IMG/VR virus record: IMGVR_UViG_3300029157_000009 | Span: 1-7,538 of that record | Origin: a virus | Taxonomy: Duplodnaviria; Heunggongvirae; Uroviricota; Caudoviricetes | Length of the DNA: 7,538 nucleotides | Direction: 5' to 3' (one strand) | In this document: piece by piece, positions 1-7,538 of the stretch | Layout: each line of letters begins with the position of its first letter | Numbering within the stretch: position 1 is the stretch's first letter | The notes under the pieces: generated by a model | Seen by the model: the letters and a program-made list of their open reading frames with translations, nothing else | Told to the model about the DNA's origin: nothing | The model's database searches: none | Made by a program: the position numbers and the translations under genes

Positions 1-1129
1 TCTATATAGCAATTATTATTCGCATCCTTTTTCTCATAATTCAACAAATGCATTCGGATTTGTTGTATTAGCAATATACATAATAACCCTCTCAAGCAAG
101 AAAATAATTCCTGCCGCTTCCATTTTTATACTATTAGTACTTTCTGGAGCTTCTGATCCTTGGATATTACCATCTTTTACACTACCTATATTGATATCTG
201 AGGTTTACAATTCATTCATCAATAGAAAAAGTTACAAATACTTTATTTTTCTATTGCTTGCATTTTTAACATCTTATTTGAATCTAGTTCAACACCTTTT
301 TGATCTACCGACTGGCGGGTTCAAAATAACAACATTTGAGCAGATGATATCTAATGCACAGTATGCAATAGTATTAACAGCAAAAATGATGCCATTGTGG
401 GTAAACCCATCAGCATCTATGTCATATTTTATTGTTTTCATATGGGTGGCCGTGTTCATAGCAGCTGCTTTAGTTTGTTTTAATAGAGGTAAAGAATTAC
501 GTATCTTTTCTATTTGCTGCGTCCTTTCAGTTCTTGGAATTTACTCTTCATCTATAATTGGAGATCAATTTCCGCATCAACGTTTTTATGTAAATGTTGC
601 TCCCGTTGTTTTCTTGTTAACCTCTGTAGCCATAAGATTTTATAAAGCTTTCTTAATACCAATTTTCATAACTATTTGTGTTTCTGTTTATGGGTATTGT
701 AACTCACCATTAAAATATGAAGAAAATAAAAACCCAGTTTATGAATATATGACTTTCCTTTCCAACAATAATCTAAGTTATGGTTATGGTAGTTTTTGGT
801 ATTCTATGAATATGACAGTGAATTGGTTATCAAAAGACCAAATACATATAACACCTGTTTTCTTTAACCCTGAAACTGGTGTTGTGTATTTTCAGCCTGC
901 AAGAATACAAACACTGTCTTCATGGCATACAAAGGAATTCATAAGCGGTAAACCAAACAGACAGTTTATTGCCATAACTCAGGGACAAACCGGTGGTGAT
1001 ACATGTCCAAACGTTCAAATATGTATTGATGGTGCTCAGAAGCAATTAGGAAAAGCCGATGAAATCCTATCATATAAGAACACAACATTCTTGGTGTACA
1101 ACAAACCAATTGAAACAGATATAAAGTAA
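1..1129 (+). CDS. 5'-truncated multi-pass integral membrane protein with a ~150-aa C-terminal hydrophilic domain; candidate O-antigen-modifying (GtrC-like) lysogenic-conversion protein
   Basis: The listed ORF begins at a TTG at 191, but the same frame (codons from position 2) has no stop back to the window edge and encodes further hydrophobic segments (e.g. FGFVVLAIYIITL, IIPAASIFILLVLSGA), so the gene starts upstream of the window. At least six hydrophobic helices are followed by a hydrophilic tail (CNSPLKYEENKNPVYEY...KPIETDIK). The region is visibly AT-rich compared with the rest of the window. It is convergent on the tailspike gene, as gtrC is in P22. The functional family is inferred from position and topology only. 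Confidence 0.75.
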   Translation, partial: LYSNYYSHPFSHNSTNAFGFVVLAIYIITLSSKKIIPAASIFILLVLSGASDPWILPSFTLPILISEVYNSFINRKSYKYFIFLLLAFLTSYLNLVQHLFDLPTGGFKITTFEQMISNAQYAIVLTAKMMPLWVNPSASMSYFIVFIWVAVFIAAALVCFNRGKELRIFSICCVLSVLGIYSSSIIGDQFPHQRFYVNVAPVVFLLTSVAIRFYKAFLIPIFITICVSVYGYCNSPLKYEENKNPVYEYMTFLSNNNLSYGYGSFWYSMNMTVNWLSKDQIHITPVFFNPETGVVYFQPARIQTLSSWHTKEFISGKPNRQFIAITQGQTGGDTCPNVQICIDGAQKQLGKADEILSYKNTTFLVYNKPIETDIK

Positions 1130-1166: not shown

Positions 1167-3290
1167 TTAATAATTCCCCTCAGAAAGGAAGCTGTAAACC
1201 CCGGGACCACCTGCAATATTACATGTCCACGCCTTTGGTTGTCCTGAAGCAGGTGCGCTATTGATAACGCGTTCGCCTATATCCCAGAAACCGGATGTAG
1301 GTACTGACGAAAGATAAAATGTTGTTTTTTCAACTTGTAACGCATTTGATGGCATTCCATATACACAAAGAGACGGTGAGTTTATGAGTACATTTCCTGA
1401 ACCATAATTTCTTATGCCAACATTTATAGCTGTAGCCGTTGCGTCTATATACACACCACAACTAACATAGCGCCATTTCCCATTACCAGCTAAAGGTGCT
1501 GTAGAGTCTGTTTGTCCTGCACCATTAACTATAAACATAAGTTTTGACGCTGCTCCCTGGTCATTTACCCACGCACCAAACCATACAAATTTCCCTTTTA
1601 GTTCTGGTGATTTGTTGAGGTCTATCGTTCGTCCCCAAACTCTATCTCCTGTCGTAACTAAGAATGAATAATTACCAGCATAGATGTTTTGAGTTTTTAT
1701 CAATGTTCCTGTGGTTCCAGATGTCGCGGTCCAGAGCAACATATTTCGATCAAGATAGTTAGCAGTTAACTCTCTGTTCGCAATATCTATTAAATGCGCA
1801 GTGTCAGGGTTTTGTGTCGCCGGGTCATAACTACCAACGTATCCTATGGAGTTCACTGTGTTGTTGGCAAGATATAGCCTGTCAGTAACTTTGGACGAAA
1901 GATTATTGTGGTACATTGCTAATAAATTATTCACTTTCGATACGTCTAATAACTGATTATTTTCAATCGTCAGGTTTTTCGCATAGTTCGTGAAAATAAA
2001 TCCGTCTTGGTTAGGTAGCGCGCTGGCGTAGCCAATCGCGGTCTGCTGATTCCCGCGAATAGATACGGTATCATTAATTTTTGAAAGGTCAGGAATTAAT
2101 GTAAAATTGTTCGCGATAAGGTGGATATCCGCACGTACTGTAATAGACTCAGGTACACTATACGGGTAACCAATCTCACCGTTGCGTTCCCAATAGTTAT
2201 CATCAAGGTTAAGGCCTTTAACCCCGTAAGCCAAAAGTCCGTAGAACTTATTTTGCTCTATATTGTTGCCATTAACTCTGACGCTCATACCGCCCTCAGC
2301 GTAAGCTGGCGTAAGTAAAACTCCACCGGCTCCGTTACCATAGATACGGCTGTTGATTATATTAATATTATTGCAGAAACCACCAACATTAATACCGTTA
2401 CCGGCGTTTTGAAACAACCGGCACCCAATGATGTCAATGGAGTAACCGTTAACTAATATTGCGTTGTTATTAGTATTAACCACGTCAATATTTTCTATTT
2501 TAATGTGGTTGGCTTCAGTAAGACTGATGCCGTTAGCTGCGTAGCCATTTCCGTCAAGACCAAAGTCCCTGAACTCGCAGAACGCAATTACCCCATCTTG
2601 TTGCGTGATTATCGGTGCCGCTGTACCCGTAGAGAAAATTCTGGACTGATATGCGCCAGCACCTCGTATCATGGTGACAGTATTCTTAATCGTAATACCA
2701 GGGTCAACAATGAACGCCCCCTCTGGTATAACAATCTCAGTTGGCAACGTAGCATCATCAATAGCCTTCTGAAATGCAGCTTTGTTCTGAGCACCGGTGT
2801 TTCCCTCAGCAAACCCGTAGTCTGTAAGCGTCCTCAGGTCGATAGTTAGCTTTTTTGAGAGAATGGTCGATGTGCTATCGACAAACTGTGGGTTATGCAT
2901 GACTAGAGAGTCGCCAAGTGAGTGATCTTCGCTCAGGAGATTGCCCTTAAACTGATCTGGATCATACTTTAGCACATTCGGAAAATAGAACTGCTGCGCA
3001 CCGTATGCATCATAAACAGCCATAGAATGGCCTTGCACAGTTACGAACTTGGCAATCTGTCCGTTATATACAGGGTAACCAGCAGCGTTAATGATGATTG
3101 GTTGCGAAACAGGAACGTGAGAGCCGTCTTCGTTTTCCACATAAACCTGAATCTGGTTTTCAGGATTTACCGGGTCCGTGTCAATTTTACCGATATAAAT
3201 TTTGCCATTAGTTACGGCTTTAAAAGAACGCGCCATAGTGAAGAGTTGCGAAGGCATGCTTACCACAACATTTGCGGTGATATCTGACAT
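1167..3290 (-). CDS. Tailspike protein: P22 gp9-type N-terminal head-binding domain fused to a divergent right-handed beta-helix receptor-binding domain (probable polysaccharide depolymerase)
   Basis: From the internal Met the protein begins [59 protein letters not shown]...[15 protein letters not shown]...NVLKYDPDQ, which closely matches the P22 tailspike N-terminus as I recall it ([59 protein letters not shown]...). I place the start at the ATG at 3290-3288 rather than the ORF-track start at 3338, because of this homology and a GGAG Shine-Dalgarno 7 nt upstream on the minus strand. The remaining ~590 residues are rich in N/G/I/V repeats typical of a parallel beta-helix (e.g. [71 protein letters not shown]) and do not resemble the P22 endorhamnosidase domain. 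Confidence 0.92.
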
Positions 3291-3411
3291 TTCATTGCTC
3301 CAGACGAATGATATGATGCAACCATGATGTGATTGCATACCGAAATGGTACTATTGAGTATTTATCCAGTAGGTTACGATGCCATTCCACCCAACTGGTG
3401 AGGCATCAAGG
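3291..3411. promoter_or_regulatory. Divergent intergenic control region between the tailspike and the mnt-like gene; candidate promoters and operator
   Basis: A 121-bp spacer separates two divergent start codons. It contains ATGAT direct repeats (3308-3317 and 3324-3328), an inverted repeat ATGCAA (3316-3321) / TTGCAT (3333-3338), and a short inverted repeat CACC-AACT-GGTG (3389-3400) just before the mnt-like Shine-Dalgarno. I could not assign -35/-10 hexamers with confidence. Confidence 0.35.
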
Positions 3412-3672
3412 ATGTACAGCAAATACGACGAGGCGCAGTTTCACTTGAGACTTCCGCATGAACTCCACGCGAAAATTAAGCAGCGTGCGAAGATGAATAA
3501 CAGGTCGCTGAACTCAGAGATAATTGCAGCGATTGAGGAATCATTGGATAAACAAAGCTCTGCATCAGTTTACATTGACGATGCAGAGCGTATGGCAGAA
3601 CAACAATCTGATATGGTTAAGAAAATTGTCTTTGATACGCTCAAGAAGCTATATAAAAAAGACAGCAGATAA
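3412..3672 (+). CDS. mnt: Mnt-like ribbon-helix-helix (Arc/MetJ family) transcriptional repressor
   Basis: The C-terminal half, DAERMAEQQSDMVKKIVFDTLKKLYKK, closely matches P22 Mnt (DAERLADEQSELVKKMVFDTLKDLYKK), and the N-terminal region, FHLRLPHELHAKIKQRAKMNNRSLNSEII, aligns with the Mnt RHH region (FNFRMPMEVREKLKFRAEANGRSMNSELL), both from memory. I start the gene at the ATG at 3412, which gives an Mnt-sized 86-aa product with a GGTGAGG Shine-Dalgarno (3397-3403), rather than at the ORF-track ATG at 3379. Confidence 0.85.
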   Translation: MYSKYDEAQFHLRLPHELHAKIKQRAKMNNRSLNSEIIAAIEESLDKQSSASVYIDDAERMAEQQSDMVKKIVFDTLKKLYKKDSR

Positions 3673-3692
3673 CCATCCGTTACGGAGGATTT

Positions 3693-3770
3693 ATGCACAG
3701 AGATATGCTGAATATTGCGTTCTACATATTTGGTTTTTGCACGTTCCTGGTGTTTGCAAAGCTATTCTGA
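3693..3770 (+). CDS. Hypothetical 25-aa hydrophobic peptide (MHRDMLNIAFYIFGFCTFLVFAKLF), single predicted transmembrane helix
   Basis: An ATG at 3693 is preceded by GGAGGA (3684-3689) and lies 20 nt after the mnt-like stop on the same strand. The product is a short charged head followed by about 20 hydrophobic residues. Its 3' end overlaps the last codons of the convergent 797-aa gene. It is too short to be supported by homology and the Shine-Dalgarno spacing is short. Confidence 0.25.
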   Translation: MHRDMLNIAFYIFGFCTFLVFAKLF

Positions 3771-6155
3771 CAACGCATCAGACTTAGCCCCCTGCGTCAG
3801 GGCGTTAATGGCCTTTTGCGCCTGCTGCATGGCTTTCTCAAACGCTGTTGATCCGCGTGGGGTGTTTGCCATTCGGAGCATTGCATTTCTGAATGGCTCG
3901 CTCTCATAGGCGCGAGTAAGAAGTCCGTAGCTTACCGCTGCGCCAGTTGTCGCCGGGTTCATTGCCGTCCCATACCCGATAATGAACGGGATAGTTTGCT
4001 GCCCCGTTGGTGTTGTTACTGCCGCTTTTGCTGCCTGCTGAGTGGATTGAAGGTAGTTTTTCAATCCTTTCAGATAAGCGGCTTCCTGACCTTTAAATGT
4101 GATGCCAGTCTGGTTTTGCAGGATGTTAAGCTGTCGAAGGAACTGGTCAGGGGATCCGCCAGATTTCTCCATCGCCTTTCCAATGATGCCATTGCGCATT
4201 TGCGCCCTGCCAACACGACCAACTGAGTTATACAGAGTCTTAATTTCCGATTTGTTCTTGCTGAATAGCATGTTGTTGACAACTTCCGGCGTCAGGTCGC
4301 CTTTCATGATAACATTCTTCAGCCTGGTATTCTTTAGTTTCGCCGCTTCGTCAGCGTAGACGGCATTGGCCTGCTGATATTTACGGAGAGTATCGTTGCC
4401 AAGATTCTGACCAATGGCACCATTGATATCGTCAGTCATTGCCTTGTAAACGCGCTGAATGGCAGCATCGGAACGGTTTGGTAACACTGGTCGCTCACCC
4501 TTCACGTCCATTCTGAACTGGCTGCGCAGGTCGCTTAATTGCTTCAAATCCAGATTTACCGGACCATCAGGACCAGCATTGCGAACAAGCTCATCACGAT
4601 AGGACTGAAGTTTTGAAATAGTCTCGTTATCGGCGACCTTACCAAGCTTCTGCAGATTAGATATTTCTGTATCAATCTGCTGAATTGCTCGCGCAGGCTG
4701 AATGTTTACTCCAGCCATAGCATTCTGAACCTGCTCCAGTCGATTACCGGCGGCACGACGAATTCCTGATGTTTTCGCTTTAAGGCTGTCAATAACAACC
4801 GCTGGATCATACTCACCGAATTTATCGGCAAATCTCTGCACCAACTGGCTTCTCGCTTCCTGTTGCGTTGCTCTCATTCCGCTTGTGCCAGCCAGAGGGA
4901 TATTTTCTGCTGTAGTCTGCGCCATTTTTCCGACGCGGGAAGTTGGTTGTAACAGGTCTGTGGTGTGAAGAGGAACTCCTTCACGCTCTGCAAATCTGAT
5001 AGCCTGCTGCGCTTCTGGCGAGATAGCGCCACGAACGCCACGATAAGCAGCACCTAATCCACGTCCGGCAGCGTTAATAGCACCGCCAGCAAGTACACCA
5101 ACGCCTAAATCGGTGGCGAGTGCTTCCGCATCATCTTTCGCACTATTTGCAGCAAGTGATCCAACTGCGTTTTCTGCTAGAAGGCGAGTTGCCCCCTGAG
5201 CAATTCGACCAGCAAGTGTTGGTGCCTGTGTTGCCGCTCTCTCAACGCCAGCAGGAGTGAGGTAAGGCAATGCTTCAGCAAATACCCTTCCCTCTGTCGT
5301 TTGTGGAGTCAGCGCGCCTTGCTGAAGGCCAAAGTCCTGCTCTAATCCCTGCGTTGTTACTCGTGGTGCTGGTTGATATGTACCATCGCCAATGCCGAGT
5401 TTACCGCCAGCCCAAGCCGCCGCGCTTGTTACAGCATCAGTGAGTTCAGCAGGTATGTTCGCTACGTTGATTCCTGCCTGTAGTAAGCCGCGCCCGGTTT
5501 CAGCAAGTCCATTACCAAGGTCAGACATTATTCCGCCTTGCTGCTGAACAGGTTTCGGTGCGACAGAACTTACGGGTTGAGGTGGCTGCTGACTGGCTGC
5601 CTGCTGCTCAATCTGAGCAAATGGATTATTTGGGTCTGACTGCACGCCTGATGCCGATACTTGTTCGGATGACTGTGCTTCCAGTTGTGCAAACGGGTTG
5701 TTAGGGTCTTGCTGAGGATGTACCTTTGCAGAGGTGGCGCGCTGTTCGACTGTTGAGTCTGTCACCGGGTCACCCGCCCATTGAGCAAAGCGATCATCAA
5801 CGTAACCGCGGCCTTCAGGTCCTGGCGTATATTCACCACGCTTTGCCTTCATAACGTTGCCGGGACCGTCGTGATAAGCCTGAAGAGCGTCACGCCAGTT
5901 ACCAAACTGCTGGTACATCTTTGCCAGATAGCGCGCGCCAGCGTCAGCCTGATATTCGGGGTTTTGCATTTGCTCATCGGTATAACCCATATCACGCCAT
6001 GTCCCAGGCATGACCTGAGTCAATCCTACAGCCCCGGCGGAGCTTACTGCGGCAGGGTTGTAAGAAGACTCCTTGGCACCCAGTGCAGTCATCAACCCTT
6101 CTGGCACACCGTAACGTGCGCCAGCCTGCTCTAACAAATCACGGTAATTAGCCAT
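3762..6155 (-). CDS. Virion ejection (DNA-transfer) protein in the P22 gene-16 position, with an N-terminal family-1 lytic transglycosylase (SLT) domain
   Basis: This is a 797-aa ORF. Its N-terminus carries the canonical SLT signature AKESSYNPAAVSSAGAVGLTQVMPGTW, with the catalytic Glu in the ES motif, followed by AYHDGPGN. The remainder is an Ala/Gly/Gln-rich extended region. The start ATG directly abuts the stop of the preceding gene (TAAATG at 6158-6153), suggesting translational coupling. Its position, just downstream of the gene-20-like protein and upstream of the tailspike, matches the ejection-protein block of P22-like phages. Confidence 0.9.
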   Translation of the reverse strand: MANYRDLLEQAGARYGVPEGLMTALGAKESSYNPAAVSSAGAVGLTQVMPGTWRDMGYTDEQMQNPEYQADAGARYLAKMYQQFGNWRDALQAYHDGPGNVMKAKRGEYTPGPEGRGYVDDRFAQWAGDPVTDSTVEQRATSAKVHPQQDPNNPFAQLEAQSSEQVSASGVQSDPNNPFAQIEQQAASQQPPQPVSSVAPKPVQQQGGIMSDLGNGLAETGRGLLQAGINVANIPAELTDAVTSAAAWAGGKLGIGDGTYQPAPRVTTQGLEQDFGLQQGALTPQTTEGRVFAEALPYLTPAGVERAATQAPTLAGRIAQGATRLLAENAVGSLAANSAKDDAEALATDLGVGVLAGGAINAAGRGLGAAYRGVRGAISPEAQQAIRFAEREGVPLHTTDLLQPTSRVGKMAQTTAENIPLAGTSGMRATQQEARSQLVQRFADKFGEYDPAVVIDSLKAKTSGIRRAAGNRLEQVQNAMAGVNIQPARAIQQIDTEISNLQKLGKVADNETISKLQSYRDELVRNAGPDGPVNLDLKQLSDLRSQFRMDVKGERPVLPNRSDAAIQRVYKAMTDDINGAIGQNLGNDTLRKYQQANAVYADEAAKLKNTRLKNVIMKGDLTPEVVNNMLFSKNKSEIKTLYNSVGRVGRAQMRNGIIGKAMEKSGGSPDQFLRQLNILQNQTGITFKGQEAAYLKGLKNYLQSTQQAAKAAVTTPTGQQTIPFIIGYGTAMNPATTGAAVSYGLLTRAYESEPFRNAMLRMANTPRGSTAFEKAMQQAQKAINALTQGAKSDALSE
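5589..5714 (-). repeat. In-frame tandem duplication of about 18 codons inside the SLT-domain ejection protein
   Basis: Protein residues ~148-165 (QQDPNNPFAQLEAQSSEQ) and ~172-189 (QSDPNNPFAQIEQQAASQ) are near-identical, and the matching DNA units are visible on the plus strand around 5620-5710 (caaatggattatttgggtctgactg / caaacgggttgttagggtcttgctg). The repeat lies just C-terminal to the SLT domain. Confidence 0.6.
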
Positions 6156-7442
6156 TTACTGCCCCAAAGATGGAAGATATCCGTAGCGATTAATGAAGTC
6201 GATTGACAGCTCGGGGTGCTGCTTCAGGTAATCTATAGAAGCCTGAGGCGCTTCCACTCGCTTGATACCGTTTTGCTGAACGTACTTACCAACCGCCTCA
6301 TTACGCTTCTGGTTGAGCGTGTTCAGGATGACGCCAGCGTTGCGACGAAAGGACTCCTCGCTCTGCGAGTTCTGCAGCGAACCAACAGCCTGGTCGAGCT
6401 TTTTGCCCTCGGCATCAGAAAGTGCGCCCATGCCTCGCATGGCCTGAACCGCTGTCAGGTATGCTTGTGATTTAAAGGTATCAAGTCGTGCCTGAGTGTC
6501 TGCAGCCTGTGAGCCTGGAACGTTGGGGATTACTCCACGTAAGCCTGTAATGCTCTTAAGTGAAGGAGAGCTAACGATATCGTTCAGAGTGAACATGCTG
6601 GTTGTGAGGGTGTTGATGCCGTCTTTGTAGCCATCATTTAGCGCTTGCTGCTTCTGCTGCAACTGCTGGTTGTTGGCTGCTATGCGGCTCTGTATTTCCT
6701 GGCGCTTCAGGTCGTTAGTTTCTGCTGATAGCATCCGGTCAAGGCGCTTATTTTCGTTGTTAATGCGGTTTGTTTCTGCGTCCAGATTAATGCGCTGCTG
6801 ACCTAAATTCGCCTGGATATCTTGTCCGCGCATTGTGATTGCCTGATTCCGAGCGGCGGTTTGCGAATCCAGATCCTGACCGCGCATGGTAACCTGGCGA
6901 CCCTGCATTTTATCCTGTAGGTCAAAGTATTTTTCGGGCCCGAGACTGTTCATCCCCAGGTGATCGACAAATTCGCCGAACTGCCGCGGATTCTGTTGGT
7001 ACATCTGAGCGACGTCATGAGGATTAACGCCAACACGAGCTAACTCACCGGCGTTGTTTTGCAGCCATGATTGCATTGCTTCTGGAGACGATGACGCAAG
7101 GCGTGCGCCAGCAGCTAAGGTGCCGATAGAATTACGCTGCTCTTCATCAATGAATCCCATGCCTTTACGAACGGATTCAATCTGGTCTGGATATTGAGTA
7201 GCCAACTGACGCAAAGCACCGCGATCACCAGACGCATAAGCATTAGCGTACGCCTGCTGAAATTCTTTCTGCCGCTGAGCCTGCTTTTCCTGCTGAAACA
7301 CCCCCGCAATACCAGAAAGACCTTGCAAAGCTGTCAGCCCAACATTGTTAGCGCCTGAACGCTCAATATCATTGTTCTGCCTGATAAGCTGAAGCGTGTT
7401 GCCGATGTCATTTACGGTGTGCCCGGAGTTCAGGGCGGGCAT
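6156..7442 (-). CDS. Virion ejection (DNA-transfer) protein in the P22 gene-20 position
   Basis: This is a 428-aa ORF, Gln-rich, with a weak internal duplication of the motif TMRGQD (residues ~185-190 and ~203-208; DNA ~6786-6893). Codon usage matches the neighbouring ejection gene. It is tightly packed and co-directional with the SLT-domain protein (stop/start TAAATG). The assignment rests on position and size; I cannot recall the P22 gp20 sequence well enough to claim direct homology. Confidence 0.8.
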
Positions 7443-7538
7443 GGATGCTTAAATGAACCGCGAGTCTGTCTGGAATATTGAACCGGTAACTCACGATGAG
7501 AAACCCAACAATCCCACCGGGTGTGACGGTGGAGAACC
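7443..7538 (-). CDS. Probable 3' end of an upstream co-directional gene (gene-7-like ejection protein?) truncated by the window edge; reading frame unresolved
   Basis: On the minus strand, two of the three frames are open from the window edge through the start of the gene-20-like CDS and would end at 7430 or 7408, overlapping that gene. The third frame ends at a TGA at 7493-7491. P22-like late operons are tightly packed, so a gene ending here is expected, but 96 nt is too little to choose the frame. Confidence 0.25.

What the first reader, a model, noticed from the sequence alone, without database searches (positions are those of the whole stretch)
3762..6155. Ejection protein with an N-terminal lytic transglycosylase domain and an internal tandem duplication
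The gene-16-position protein opens with a textbook SLT catalytic motif (ES...AGAVGLTQVMPGTW...AYHDGPG). A cell-wall-digesting ejection protein is reminiscent of T7 gp16 and implies the injected protein itself opens the peptidoglycan during DNA delivery. Just after this domain an ~18-residue unit (DPNNPFAQ(L/I)E.Q...) is duplicated in tandem (DNA ~5589-5714), a possible site of length variation. Ejection proteins of P22-like phages are highly mosaic, so this domain architecture may be an under-described variant.
Basis: partly seen in the sequence, partly recalled or inferred. Interest (0 to 1): 0.45.

Follow-up and report, generated by a model that had tools for sequence, protein, structure and literature searches.

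The report
Phage DNA-injection protein with wall-cutting domain
This is the gene-16-type DNA-injection protein of a P22-like prophage carrying a genuine cell-wall-cutting (lytic transglycosylase) head; the same protein is already in public phage and E. coli genomes, and the "tandem duplication" is really an old, conserved pair of short sequence motifs, not a variable repeat.

Summary
The 797-aa ORF (6155-3762, minus strand) lies between a gp20-type gene and mnt/tailspike in a P22-like prophage. Residues 1-130 are a bona fide SLT domain: Pfam E=2.8e-25, Glu29 aligned with the catalytic Glu478 of Slt70, pLDDT >84, Foldseek hits to Slt70, MltE and T7 gp16. Residues 208-797 are 97% identical to Sf6 gp13.

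The architecture is not new. Phage IME10 has the same protein at 99.1% identity. Sf101, APC_JM3.2, Huey, Dewey and phiKp_30 carry the identical N-terminal module. 70 of 5,426 complete E. coli genomes have it, and PGAP names it a lytic transglycosylase domain protein.

The "duplication" is real only at protein level: DPNNPFAQ at aa 150 and 174, period 24 aa rather than 18. DNA identity is 40/72, TRF finds nothing, and 9 of 13 shared residues use different codons. No copy-number variation was seen in 67 E. coli genomes or in relatives of 72-74% identity.

New here: related SLT-gp16 proteins nearly always carry two copies of a short aromatic motif (N-x-F-[AD]-Q-Φ, or GPWxKY). Their positions around the SLT vary, and they sit in predicted disorder. 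Their function is unknown; I infer a bivalent docking signal. Low novelty, modest interest.

The parts
3762..6155 (-). Gene-16-type ejection / DNA transfer protein, 797 aa (stop codon 3762-3764). The ATG at 6155 immediately follows the TAA of the gp20-type gene, with GGGG 5-8 nt upstream.
5766..6155 (-). SLT lytic transglycosylase domain, aa 1-130. It includes a conserved C-terminal extension YVDDRFAQW (aa 118-126).
   Evidence: Pfam PF01464 E=2.8e-25; pLDDT 89-98; Foldseek hits to Slt70, Slt, MltE and T7 gp16; alignment
6069..6071 (-). Codon GAG for Glu29, the predicted catalytic acid (K-E-S motif).
   Evidence: Aligns with Slt70 residue 478; invariant in 14 homologues; sequence read
5673..5708 (-). 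Motif copy 1, aa 150-161, DPNNPFAQLEAQ. Its position (catalytic Glu +124) matches the single post-SLT copy found in related proteins.
5601..5636 (-). Motif copy 2, aa 174-185, DPNNPFAQIEQQ (catalytic Glu +148). This is the extra copy specific to the IME10-type module, which lacks the N-terminal copy seen in relatives.
5535..5765 (-). Predicted disordered Q/P/S-rich tether, aa 131-207, containing both motif copies and ending in ...PVQQQGG.
   Evidence: pLDDT 39-53 in the N-terminal model and 29-39 in the full-length model
5538..5543 (.). Mosaic (recombination) junction. To the right (5538-7416) the DNA is 98.5% identical to Sf101; to the left (3692-5543) it is 94.9% identical to Sf6.
   Evidence: protein-level break at aa 206/207
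3765..5534 (-). gp16 body, aa 208-797. It is all-alpha with low-confidence folding, has no classical transmembrane helix (best Kyte-Doolittle 19-mer 1.36), and starts with the conserved GRGLLQAGINVANIP.
   Evidence: 97% identity to Sf6 gp13; precomputed PF26808 in database relatives
6156..7442 (-). gp20-type ejection protein gene immediately upstream. Its C-terminal two-thirds (6156-6950) travels with the SLT module as one block.
   Evidence: Pfam Inj_translocase E=1e-60; in 66 of the 71 E. coli genomes that match, one stretch spans both this part of gp20 and the SLT module

Best explanation
The ORF encodes the third ejection protein (gene 16 / Sf6 gp13 type) of a P22-like temperate podovirus. 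It is packaged in the capsid and expelled through the tail ahead of the DNA.

It is a three-part mosaic:
1. A compact, catalytically competent SLT lytic transglycosylase (aa 1-130).
2. A disordered Q/P-rich tether of about 75 aa carrying two copies of a short aromatic motif, DPNNPFAQ[L/I]E.
3. An all-alpha Sf6-type gp16 body.

Most likely mechanism, by analogy with T7 gp16: once ejected into the periplasm, the SLT head cleaves MurNAc-GlcNAc bonds locally. This widens the peptidoglycan mesh so that the gp7/gp20/gp16 trans-envelope conduit can assemble. The body goes on to the inner membrane for DNA transfer.

The N-terminal 206 aa form an exchangeable cassette. It is 100% identical on the unrelated body of Sf101 gp13, and it is replaced by a 77-aa SLT-less module in Sf6 on the same body.

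The two motif copies are not a slippage-prone repeat. They are a conserved pair of short linear motifs. I infer that they act as a bivalent docking or positioning signal for the SLT module, with the co-inherited C-terminal part of gp20 as the leading candidate partner, comparable to the 'molecular tape' that follows the SLT domain in T7 gp16.

Shown here: domain identity, catalytic residues, fold, mosaic boundaries, motif conservation and valency, predicted disorder. Inferred: enzymatic activity, timing and site of action, and the motif's partner.
For: Domain and catalytic residue:
- Pfam SLT E=2.8e-25.
- Glu29 aligns with Slt70 E478.
- E29, Y94, G97, G99 and N100 are invariant in 14 homologues.
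- pLDDT is 89-98 over aa 1-130. Foldseek hits Slt70, Slt, MltE and T7 gp16.

Ejection-protein identity:
- phrog_770 E=1e-239.
- 97% identity to Sf6 gp13 and 75% to P22-type gp16 from aa 207.
- Synteny gp4-gp10-gp26-gp14-gp7-gp20-[this]-mnt-tailspike in the near-identical E. coli S56 and IME10 loci.

Cassette behaviour:
- Sf101 gp13 is 100% identical over aa 1-206 and then unrelated.
- The Sf6 N-terminus is different and has no SLT by Pfam or NCBIfam.
- The DNA junction lies at 5538-5543.

Motifs under selection:
- Exact 8-mer repeated, with no such repeat in 2,000 shuffles.
- DNA identity 40/72, and 9 of 13 shared residues use different codons.
- Relatives of 72-74% identity keep two copies 24 aa apart.
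- Lytic podoviruses with the same ejection-gene cassette have one copy at residue 3 and one at catalytic Glu +122 to +129. The two copies co-vary: NPFAQF/NPFAQF, NFFDQF/NFFDQF, NMFAEF/NMFAEF, NVFDQF/NVFDQF.
- A third group has two GPWxKY copies, both before the SLT.
- The motif occurs nowhere else in six-frame translations of 8-12 kb around the gene.
- The region is predicted disordered both alone and in the full-length protein.

Linkage to gp20: in 66 of the 71 E. coli genomes that match, one stretch spans both this gp20 C-terminal type and the SLT module. The gp16 body type is found in 336 genomes.

T7 precedent: the gp16 N-terminal transglycosylase is needed when peptidoglycan is highly cross-linked, and it is followed by a 'molecular tape' that binds gp15 (PMC8954989).
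Against: - No enzymatic or virion-location data exist for this protein. Everything functional is by homology.
- P22 itself infects without an SLT on gp16, and its virion lysin activity has been assigned to gp4 (PMC5380687). Sf6-type phages use the same body without an SLT. The domain is therefore probably auxiliary rather than essential.
- The motif-partner idea is untested. The gp20/SLT-module linkage could simply reflect adjacency between two recombination hot spots.
- AlphaFold gave no sign that the motifs dock on the gp16 body (pLDDT 29-39). The paired gp20+gp16N prediction could not be run.
- Some SLT-gp16 proteins with a P22-type N-terminal tag (P0256, P0299, L055) have no recognisable motif pair.
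Confidence: 0.75

Rival explanations
1. The motif pair is not a gp20-docking 'tape'. It serves another purpose. One option is a signal that recruits the protein, or a free-standing SLT module, into procapsids through scaffold, portal or coat. Another is a pair of aromatic interfacial anchors that hold the SLT head at a membrane surface in the periplasm.
For: - The motifs are short, aromatic and lie in predicted disorder. Their position is free (before, around or after the SLT), which fits any kind of short linear motif.
- In Kosakonia phage Kc166B the SLT module with both motifs is annotated as a separate 310-aa protein from the 734-aa body. A free module like this would need its own incorporation signal.
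- The copy at the extreme N-terminus (MANxFxQF) in many relatives resembles a terminal tag.
Against: - No direct evidence favours any partner.
- SLT-less gp16 types (Sf6, P22) are packaged without this motif.
- The Kc166B split could be a sequencing frameshift.
Confidence: 0.3
2. The SLT domain is a catalytically inert structural or spacer module. It might only bind peptidoglycan, or be a relic of recombination.
For: The closely related Sf6-type body works without it. P22-like virions already have a lysin activity attributed to gp4 (PMC5380687).
Against: - The catalytic Glu and the GLxQ and AYxxGxGN motifs are invariant across 14 homologues of 40-50% identity.
- The fold is predicted with very high confidence.
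- The module is kept intact at >=99% identity in 67 E. coli prophages.
Confidence: 0.05
3. One reading: a recent in-frame tandem DNA duplication that is a hot spot for length variation.
For: Two adjacent units share an exact 8-residue core. One distant relative (P0251) has three copies in total.
Against: - TRF finds no repeat.
- DNA identity is 56%, with saturated synonymous differences.
- There are no copy-number variants among 67 E. coli genomes, several phages and 80 IMG/VR loci. Copies stay 24 aa apart at 72-74% protein identity.
Confidence: 0.03
4. The protein is a lysis enzyme or a 'lytic tail fiber protein', as the PHROG label suggests, rather than an internal ejection protein.
For: phrog_21143 'lytic tail fiber protein' matches aa 1-207 with E=2e-144. 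Other SLT PHROGs are labelled endolysin or tail.
Against: - Gene order and 97% identity of the body to Sf6 gp13 / P22 gp16 place it in the ejection-protein set.
- The tailspike is a separate downstream gene.
- The PHROG label is an automatic name for the Sf101-type version of the same protein.
Confidence: 0.03

Closest known systems
Enterobacteria phage IME10 (NC_019501) unannotated ORF at 31064-33457, and the matching E. coli prophage proteins that PGAP names 'lytic transglycosylase domain-containing protein'
   Same: Same protein: 99.1% identity over all 797 aa, same two motif copies, same gene neighbourhood. The database cluster holds about 1,295 member sequences.
   Different: Nothing of substance. 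The IME10 record simply leaves the gene unannotated.
Shigella phage Sf6 gp13 / Salmonella phage P22 gp16 (DNA transfer / ejection protein; phrog_770; PF26808 precomputed for database relatives)
   Same: Body aa 208-797 is 97% (Sf6) and about 75% (P22-type) identical, in the same position after gene 20.
   Different: Sf6 has a 77-aa N-terminal module and P22 one of about 55 aa. Neither has an SLT domain or the NPFAQ motif.
Shigella phage Sf101 gp13 (911 aa, deposited as 'transglycosylase'); also APC_JM3.2, Huey, Dewey, phiKp_30
   Same: The N-terminal cassette aa 1-206 is 100% identical, including both motifs, and gp20 is near-identical.
   Different: In Sf101 the cassette is fused to a different, essentially unrelated gp16 body.
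Bacteriophage T7 gp16 (internal core / ejectosome protein with an N-terminal lytic transglycosylase)
   Same: An N-terminal SLT domain on the largest ejection protein, followed by an extended segment. Matched by sequence (E=6.5e-4, aa 3-112) and by fold. The function in T7 is local peptidoglycan cleavage during genome entry (PMC8954989).
   Different: There is no detectable homology beyond the SLT domain. T7 gp16 is 1,318 aa and forms a core stack. P22-like ejection proteins do not form one (PMC8954989).
SLT-gp16 'DNA transfer proteins' of lytic podoviruses with a P22-type ejection cassette (Murrayvirus IME_EC2, Sortsnevirus IME279/Sortsne, Skarpretter, Lumpael, Kosakonia Kc259/Kc166B)
   Same: Same gene order gp7-gp20-[SLT-gp16]. 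SLT is 50-63% identical, with the same YVDxRFxQW extension, a post-SLT motif at the same offset, and the same GRGL..NIP body start.
   Different: They are about 1,000 aa long and have a roughly 33-aa N-terminal extension carrying the first motif copy (MANxF[AD]QF), with only one copy after the SLT.
P22 gp4 (tail adaptor reported as the virion-associated lysin of P22)
   Same: It is proposed to provide peptidoglycan hydrolysis during P22 infection (PMC5380687).
   Different: It is an unrelated 18-kDa neck protein, not ejected and without an SLT domain. A gp4 homologue is also present in these prophages, so the SLT would be a second muralytic function.

Membership tests
SLT / family-1 lytic transglycosylases (Pfam PF01464) | Profile match above the curated threshold | tested here: met
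   88.6 bits against a gathering score of 21.3, E=2.8e-25, residues 7-110 covering profile positions 2-110 of 117
SLT / family-1 lytic transglycosylases (Pfam PF01464) | Catalytic Glu in the E-S motif, plus the GLxQ and AYxxGxGN motifs | tested here: met
   E29-S30, G44-L45-T46-Q47 and A93-Y-H-D-G-P-G-N100 are present. E29 aligns with Slt70 residue 478. E29, Q47, Y94, G97, G99 and N100 are invariant in 14 homologues.
SLT / family-1 lytic transglycosylases (Pfam PF01464) | Lysozyme-like all-alpha SLT fold | tested here: met
   AlphaFold pLDDT 89-98 for aa 1-130. Top Foldseek PDB hits are 5ohu, 5o1j, 1qte, 4hjy and 7k5c_B, probability 1.00.
SLT / family-1 lytic transglycosylases (Pfam PF01464) | Muralytic activity producing 1,6-anhydro-MurNAc | not testable with these tools
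   Needs a zymogram or HPLC of muropeptides with wild-type and E29Q domain.
P22 gp16 / Sf6 gp13 ejection (DNA transfer) proteins | Sequence homology of the body | tested here: met
   phrog_770 E=1e-239 over aa 108-797. tblastn gives 97% identity to Sf6 gp13 and 75% to ST64T/P22-type gp16. PF26808 is precomputed in database relatives.
P22 gp16 / Sf6 gp13 ejection (DNA transfer) proteins | Position as last gene of the 7-20-16 ejection cluster, upstream of the tailspike region | tested here: met
   gp20-type gene at 7442-6156 and tailspike at 3290-1167. The full order is seen in IME10, Sf101 and E. coli S56.
P22 gp16 / Sf6 gp13 ejection (DNA transfer) proteins | Packaged in the virion and ejected before the DNA; needed for DNA transfer | not testable with these tools
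   Needs virion proteomics, an ejection assay and genetics.
T7 gp16 family (internal core protein D) | N-terminal lytic transglycosylase domain | tested here: met
   phmmer E=6.5e-4 to 7eyb_I/6yt5_G over aa 3-112. Foldseek hits 7k5c_B, 7eyb_I and 9jyy_I.
T7 gp16 family (internal core protein D) | Homology of the remaining ~1,150 residues (tape, membrane and cytoplasmic hub regions) | tested here: not met
   Matches to T7 gp16 stop at about aa 112-140. phrog_342 matches only aa 3-189. So it works like T7 gp16-N but is not a member of that family.
DNA-level tandem repeat / slippage-prone duplication | Head-to-tail DNA copies of high identity, with copy-number polymorphism among close relatives | tested here: not met
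   TRF finds nothing at score >=30. DNA identity is 40/72 nt. No variants were found in 67 E. coli genomes or in the IMG/VR loci.

The most novel reading that the evidence does not exclude
SLT-bearing gp16-type ejection proteins share a previously undescribed, position-independent but valency-conserved pair of aromatic short linear motifs: N-x-F-[AD]-Q-Φ, or GPWxKY in another lineage. In this reading the pair is a bivalent docking code that fixes the muralytic head onto the periplasmic part of the ejectosome, most plausibly the co-inherited C-terminal domain of gp20. That would be a P22-lineage counterpart of the T7 gp16 'molecular tape'. It would also explain why the window's lineage, having lost the N-terminal copy, carries two copies after the SLT.
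Probability: 0.3. Interest if true: 0.5.

Novelty: already known. Interest (0 to 1): 0.27.

Why it matters
For annotation, the gene should be called an ejection/DNA-transfer protein (gp16 type) with an N-terminal lytic transglycosylase. It is not a tail fibre or an endolysin.

For phage biology, it corrects a statement in a recent review that P22-like phages lack the transglycosylase on gp16. About one in five E. coli prophages with this gp16 body carry it (70 genomes against 336), and so do whole genera of lytic podoviruses. The natural set of SLT-plus and SLT-minus versions on a 97%-identical body is a ready-made system for asking when a podovirus needs its own peptidoglycan cutter.

The conserved motif pair gives a concrete, cheap mutational handle on how ejection proteins are positioned. 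None of this is surprising in kind, because virion-borne SLT domains on ejection proteins have been known since T7.

Tried and rejected
1. Tandem Repeats Finder over the whole window at minimum score 30 found only a 9-nt array in gp20 and nothing at 5571-5714.

2. A possible third, degenerate repeat copy 'DDRFAQW' (aa 120-126) was flagged by the repeat finder D1. I rejected it. The element YV[DT][DE/P]RFxQW is conserved at that position in all SLT-gp16 homologues, including those with other motif types, so it belongs to the SLT module.

3. Truncated E. coli matches H69 and H70 looked like candidate repeat variants. They are deletion or IS-disrupted prophage remnants.

4. The search for homologous proteins with aa 1-208 returned mostly short generic SLT proteins and was of little use for the motif. 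The exhaustive representative search and the IMG/VR scan did the job.

5. Database proteins with other N-termini on the same body are probably deletion fusions or assembly chimeras, not alternative modules. These are gp7::gp16 (P0157), gp20::gp16 (P0162) and NinG-like or fibre-like heads (P0163, P0165, P0134).

7. The full-length gp16 model has low confidence (pTM 0.28). It shows no ordering of the motif region, so there is no support for intramolecular docking.

8. Casjens & Thuman-Commike 2011 (Virology 411:393) is the paper most likely to have described gp16 N-terminal types. It could not be retrieved. A literature search for the motif string found nothing relevant.

9. The promoter/terminator scan of the 16-mnt intergenic region found nothing above background.
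Full report
**Context.** The window is the right end of the virion-gene operon of a P22-like (Lederbergvirus-type) prophage. On the minus strand lie a gp20-type ejection protein (7442-6156; Pfam Inj_translocase E=1e-60) and the 797-aa ORF of the finding (6155-3762). Further along is a P22-type tailspike with Head_binding and beta-helix domains. An Mnt/Arc-type repressor (3379-3672) sits on the plus strand. At the left edge is the 3' part of a low-GC, serotype-converting Gtr-type glucosyltransferase. DNA from 2950 to 7416 is 97.6% identical to coliphage IME10 and to a prophage in E. coli S56. In those loci the full order is portal-scaffold-coat-gp4-gp10-gp26-gp14-gp7-gp20-[this gene]-mnt-tailspike-gtrCBA-int.

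**The SLT domain is real.**
- Pfam SLT (PF01464) matches residues 7-110 with E=2.8e-25, 88.6 bits against a 21.3-bit threshold.
- phmmer against PDB sequences gives E. coli Slt70 as the best hit (E=5.8e-11). Query Glu29 (in AKESSYNP) lies on Slt70 position 478 (in RQESAWNP). From established knowledge, that is the catalytic acid of Slt70.
- In an alignment of 14 homologues sharing 40-50% identity, E29, Q47, Y94, G97, G99 and N100 are invariant.
- AlphaFold2 models residues 1-130 at pLDDT 89-98. Foldseek against the PDB returns Slt, Slt70, LtgA, MltE, MltF, MltD and, notably, T7 gp16 from ejectosome and core structures (7k5c_B, 7eyb_I, 9jyy_I), all at probability 1.00.
- Enzymatic activity itself cannot be tested here.

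**The rest is a gp16 / Sf6 gp13 body.** phrog_770 'DNA transfer protein' matches residues 108-797 (E=1e-239). tblastn shows 97% identity to Sf6 gp13 and about 75% to P22-type gp16 (ST64T, L, ST104), always starting at residue 207-208. The body is predicted all-alpha with low confidence (pTM 0.28). It has no classical transmembrane helix; the best 19-mer hydropathy is 1.36. This fits ejection proteins that must be soluble in the capsid and refold on ejection.

**The architecture is a mosaic with a sharp junction.**
- Sf6 gp13 (665 aa) has a different 77-aa N-terminus with no SLT by Pfam or NCBIfam.
- Sf101 gp13 (911 aa) is 100% identical over residues 1-206 and then essentially unrelated.
- At DNA level, window 3692-5543 is 94.9% identical to Sf6 and 5538-7416 is 98.5% identical to Sf101. 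The junction falls at the end of the Q/P-rich linker (…PVQQQ|GG).
- All N-module types join the body just before a conserved (A/T)G(R/K)GLxQAGVNVANIP.
- The block that moves together is [C-terminal two-thirds of gp20 + gp16 N-module]. A query spanning this gp20 part and the SLT module matches 71 of 5,426 complete E. coli genomes, 66 of them over at least 80% of its length. The Sf6-type body is in 336 genomes.

**It is already in the databases.**
- The same protein (99.1% identity) is encoded, though unannotated, by phage IME10. phiKp_30 has it at 94%.
- The identical N-module occurs in Sf101 (deposited as 'transglycosylase'), APC_JM3.2, Huey and Dewey.
- The N-module DNA is present in 70 complete E. 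coli genomes, and PGAP calls the product 'lytic transglycosylase domain-containing protein'. The 90%-identity protein cluster has about 1,295 members.
- Homologous SLT-gp16 proteins of about 1,000 aa occupy the same slot in lytic podoviruses: Murrayvirus IME_EC2, Sortsnevirus, Skarpretter, Lumpael and Kosakonia phages.
- The searchable literature hardly discusses this. One genome paper lists 'transglycosylase' in passing (PMC10345575). The Sf101 paper only notes that the injection proteins are divergent (PMC4159516). [quoted passage not shown]
- I could not retrieve Casjens & Thuman-Commike 2011, which may have classified it.

**The 'tandem duplication'.**
- There is an exact 8-residue repeat, DPNNPFAQ, at aa 150 and 174. 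It extends to 10/12 identities (DPNNPFAQLEAQ against DPNNPFAQIEQQ), with a 24-aa (72-nt) period.
- No shuffle of the protein (0 of 2,000) or of the Q/P-rich segment (0 of 5,000) gives an 8-mer repeat.
- At DNA level the units are only 40/72 identical (24/36 in the core). 9 of the 13 shared residues use different codons, and TRF sees nothing. The duplication is therefore old and maintained at protein level.
- I found no copy-number variant. All 67 near-full E. coli matches cover the region at >=99% identity, and every listed row is a single ungapped piece. Two truncated matches are decayed prophages. IMG/VR relatives with only 72-74% identity (L031-L033) keep two copies exactly 24 aa apart.

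**What the repeat appears to be.** I compared SLT-gp16 proteins from the phage collection, from an exhaustive HMMER search of 1.84 billion representatives (13 hits at E<=1e-30) and from 80 IMG/VR loci. A consistent pattern emerged.
- Type B (lytic podoviruses and relatives) has one copy at the extreme N-terminus and one after the SLT at catalytic Glu +122 to +129. The two copies co-vary within each protein: MANPFAQF/NNPFAQF, MANFFDQF/GNFFDQF, MANMFAEF/GNMFAEF, MANVFDQF/GNVFDQF, MANIFDQF/GNVFDQF, MANMFAQY/GNLFAEY.
- Type A (this window, IME10, Sf101 and so on) starts directly with the SLT (MAN|YRDLLEQ aligns to …|YADLVES after a gap of about 30-60 alignment columns). It has two copies after the SLT, at Glu +124 and +148.
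- P0251 has one N-terminal copy plus two after the SLT.
- Type C carries a different aromatic motif, GPW[x][KN]Y, twice, both N-terminal to the SLT.
- A few proteins with a P22-type N-terminal tag have no such pair.
- The motif occurs nowhere else in six-frame translations of the surrounding 8-12 kb.
- The segment is predicted disordered both in isolation (pLDDT 39-53) and in the full-length protein (29-39).
- Taken together, these features are conserved valency (about two), variable position, co-variation of the copies, and a disordered context. They are the signature of short linear interaction motifs, not of a structural repeat or a slippage product.

**Mechanism.** The shown steps are domain identity, catalytic residues, fold, gene position, cassette boundaries and motif conservation. 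The remaining steps are inferred from the T7 paradigm and from P22 biology as summarised in PMC8954989, PMC4755594 and PMC5380687.
- The protein is packaged and then ejected through the tail.
- Its SLT head cuts glycan strands locally, so that the gp7/gp20/gp16 conduit can span the periplasm.
- The body proceeds to the inner membrane.
- P22 and Sf6 do without the domain, and P22 virion lysin activity is attributed to gp4. The SLT is therefore probably an auxiliary function that helps under demanding wall conditions, as in T7.
- For the motif pair I propose bivalent docking of the SLT module, with the co-inherited C-terminal region of gp20 as the leading candidate, analogous to the T7 gp16 'molecular tape'. 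I give this about 30% probability.
- Alternatives are a procapsid-incorporation signal or interfacial membrane anchors. In Kc166B the SLT module with both motifs is annotated as a separate 310-aa protein. If real, that shows the module can function uncoupled from the body and would need its own targeting.

**Verdict.** Novelty is 'already known' at database level. The only new element is the conserved motif pair. Interest is modest.

Noticed in passing
database relatives of window 3765-5534 (for example P0158, P0160, P0203; Sf6-type 665-aa gp16): NCBI/PGAP names SLT-less Sf6-type and P22-type gp16 proteins (639-669 aa) 'lytic transglycosylase domain-containing protein'. Neither Pfam nor NCBIfam finds any SLT domain in them. 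The name seems to have spread from SLT-fused relatives through the shared body.
   Followed up: partly
L001 (IME10, NC_019501) 5001-7394: The RefSeq record of phage IME10 has only 27 annotated features. This 797-aa gene, and everything between gene 20 and the integrase, is left unannotated.
   Followed up: partly
window 1-1129 (+): A low-GC (32%) open frame runs off the left edge of the window. Its product is 37% identical to the C-terminal ~310 aa of the serotype-specific O-antigen glucosyltransferase GtrI of Shigella phage SfI, and 98% identical to a 'hypothetical protein' of Escherichia phage N7. It has no Pfam or NCBIfam hit. It is convergent with the tailspike and is likely the serotype-converting gtrC-type gene of this prophage. 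This DNA was not found next to the same tailspike in complete E. coli genomes.
   Followed up: partly
window 1167-3338 (-): The tailspike ORF as listed starts 16 codons too early. The Head_binding domain and the P22-like [10 protein letters not shown] start are at the ATG at 3290. The receptor-binding part is 98% identical to prophage tailspikes of E. coli O26:H11 strains.
   Followed up: partly
window 3379-3672 (+): An Mnt-like repressor (Arc plus Repressor_Mnt domains) stands alone between gene 16 and the tailspike, with no arc or ant genes. This is a reduced immI region. Its best PHROG family (phrog_795) carries the misleading label 'partition protein ATPase', which has been copied into the Sf101 RefSeq annotation.
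   Followed up: no
window 6819-6890 (-), gp20 aa 185-208: gp20 contains its own short protein-level repeat, TMRGQD[L/I], twice and 18 aa apart ([27 protein letters not shown]). TRF also reports a 9-nt, 2.6-copy array at 6646-6668 in the Q-rich part of gp20.
   Followed up: no
window 7416-7538: Identity to IME10, Sf101 and S56 stops at 7416. The window's gp20 starts MPALNSGH and is 428 aa, whereas relatives start MATWQ… and are 443-445 aa. This is another mosaic junction inside the 5' end of gene 20, or a different gp7-gp20 boundary.
   Followed up: no
L007 (Kosakonia phage Kc166B) 4908-8058: Here the SLT module with both motifs (310 aa) and the gp16 body (734 aa) are annotated as two separate ORFs in different frames, 13 nt apart. 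This is either a natural split of the fusion or a sequencing frameshift.
   Followed up: no
P0157, P0162, P0163, P0165, P0134, P0193 (database proteins sharing the body): Proteins with gp7, gp20, NinG-like or fibre-like N-termini are fused in frame to the gp16 body. They are probably deletions in decaying prophages or assembly chimeras. They show that the start of the body is a frequent breakpoint.
   Followed up: partly
L041-L053, L088; P0255, P0262, P0296: A separate lineage of SLT-gp16 proteins (825-965 aa) carries a different doubled aromatic motif, MAGPWEKYQ…GPW[x][KN]Y, both copies upstream of the SLT. P0256, P0299 and L055 place a P22-gp16-like N-terminal tag (MDVLLPNGKT…) in front of an SLT domain.
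   Followed up: partly
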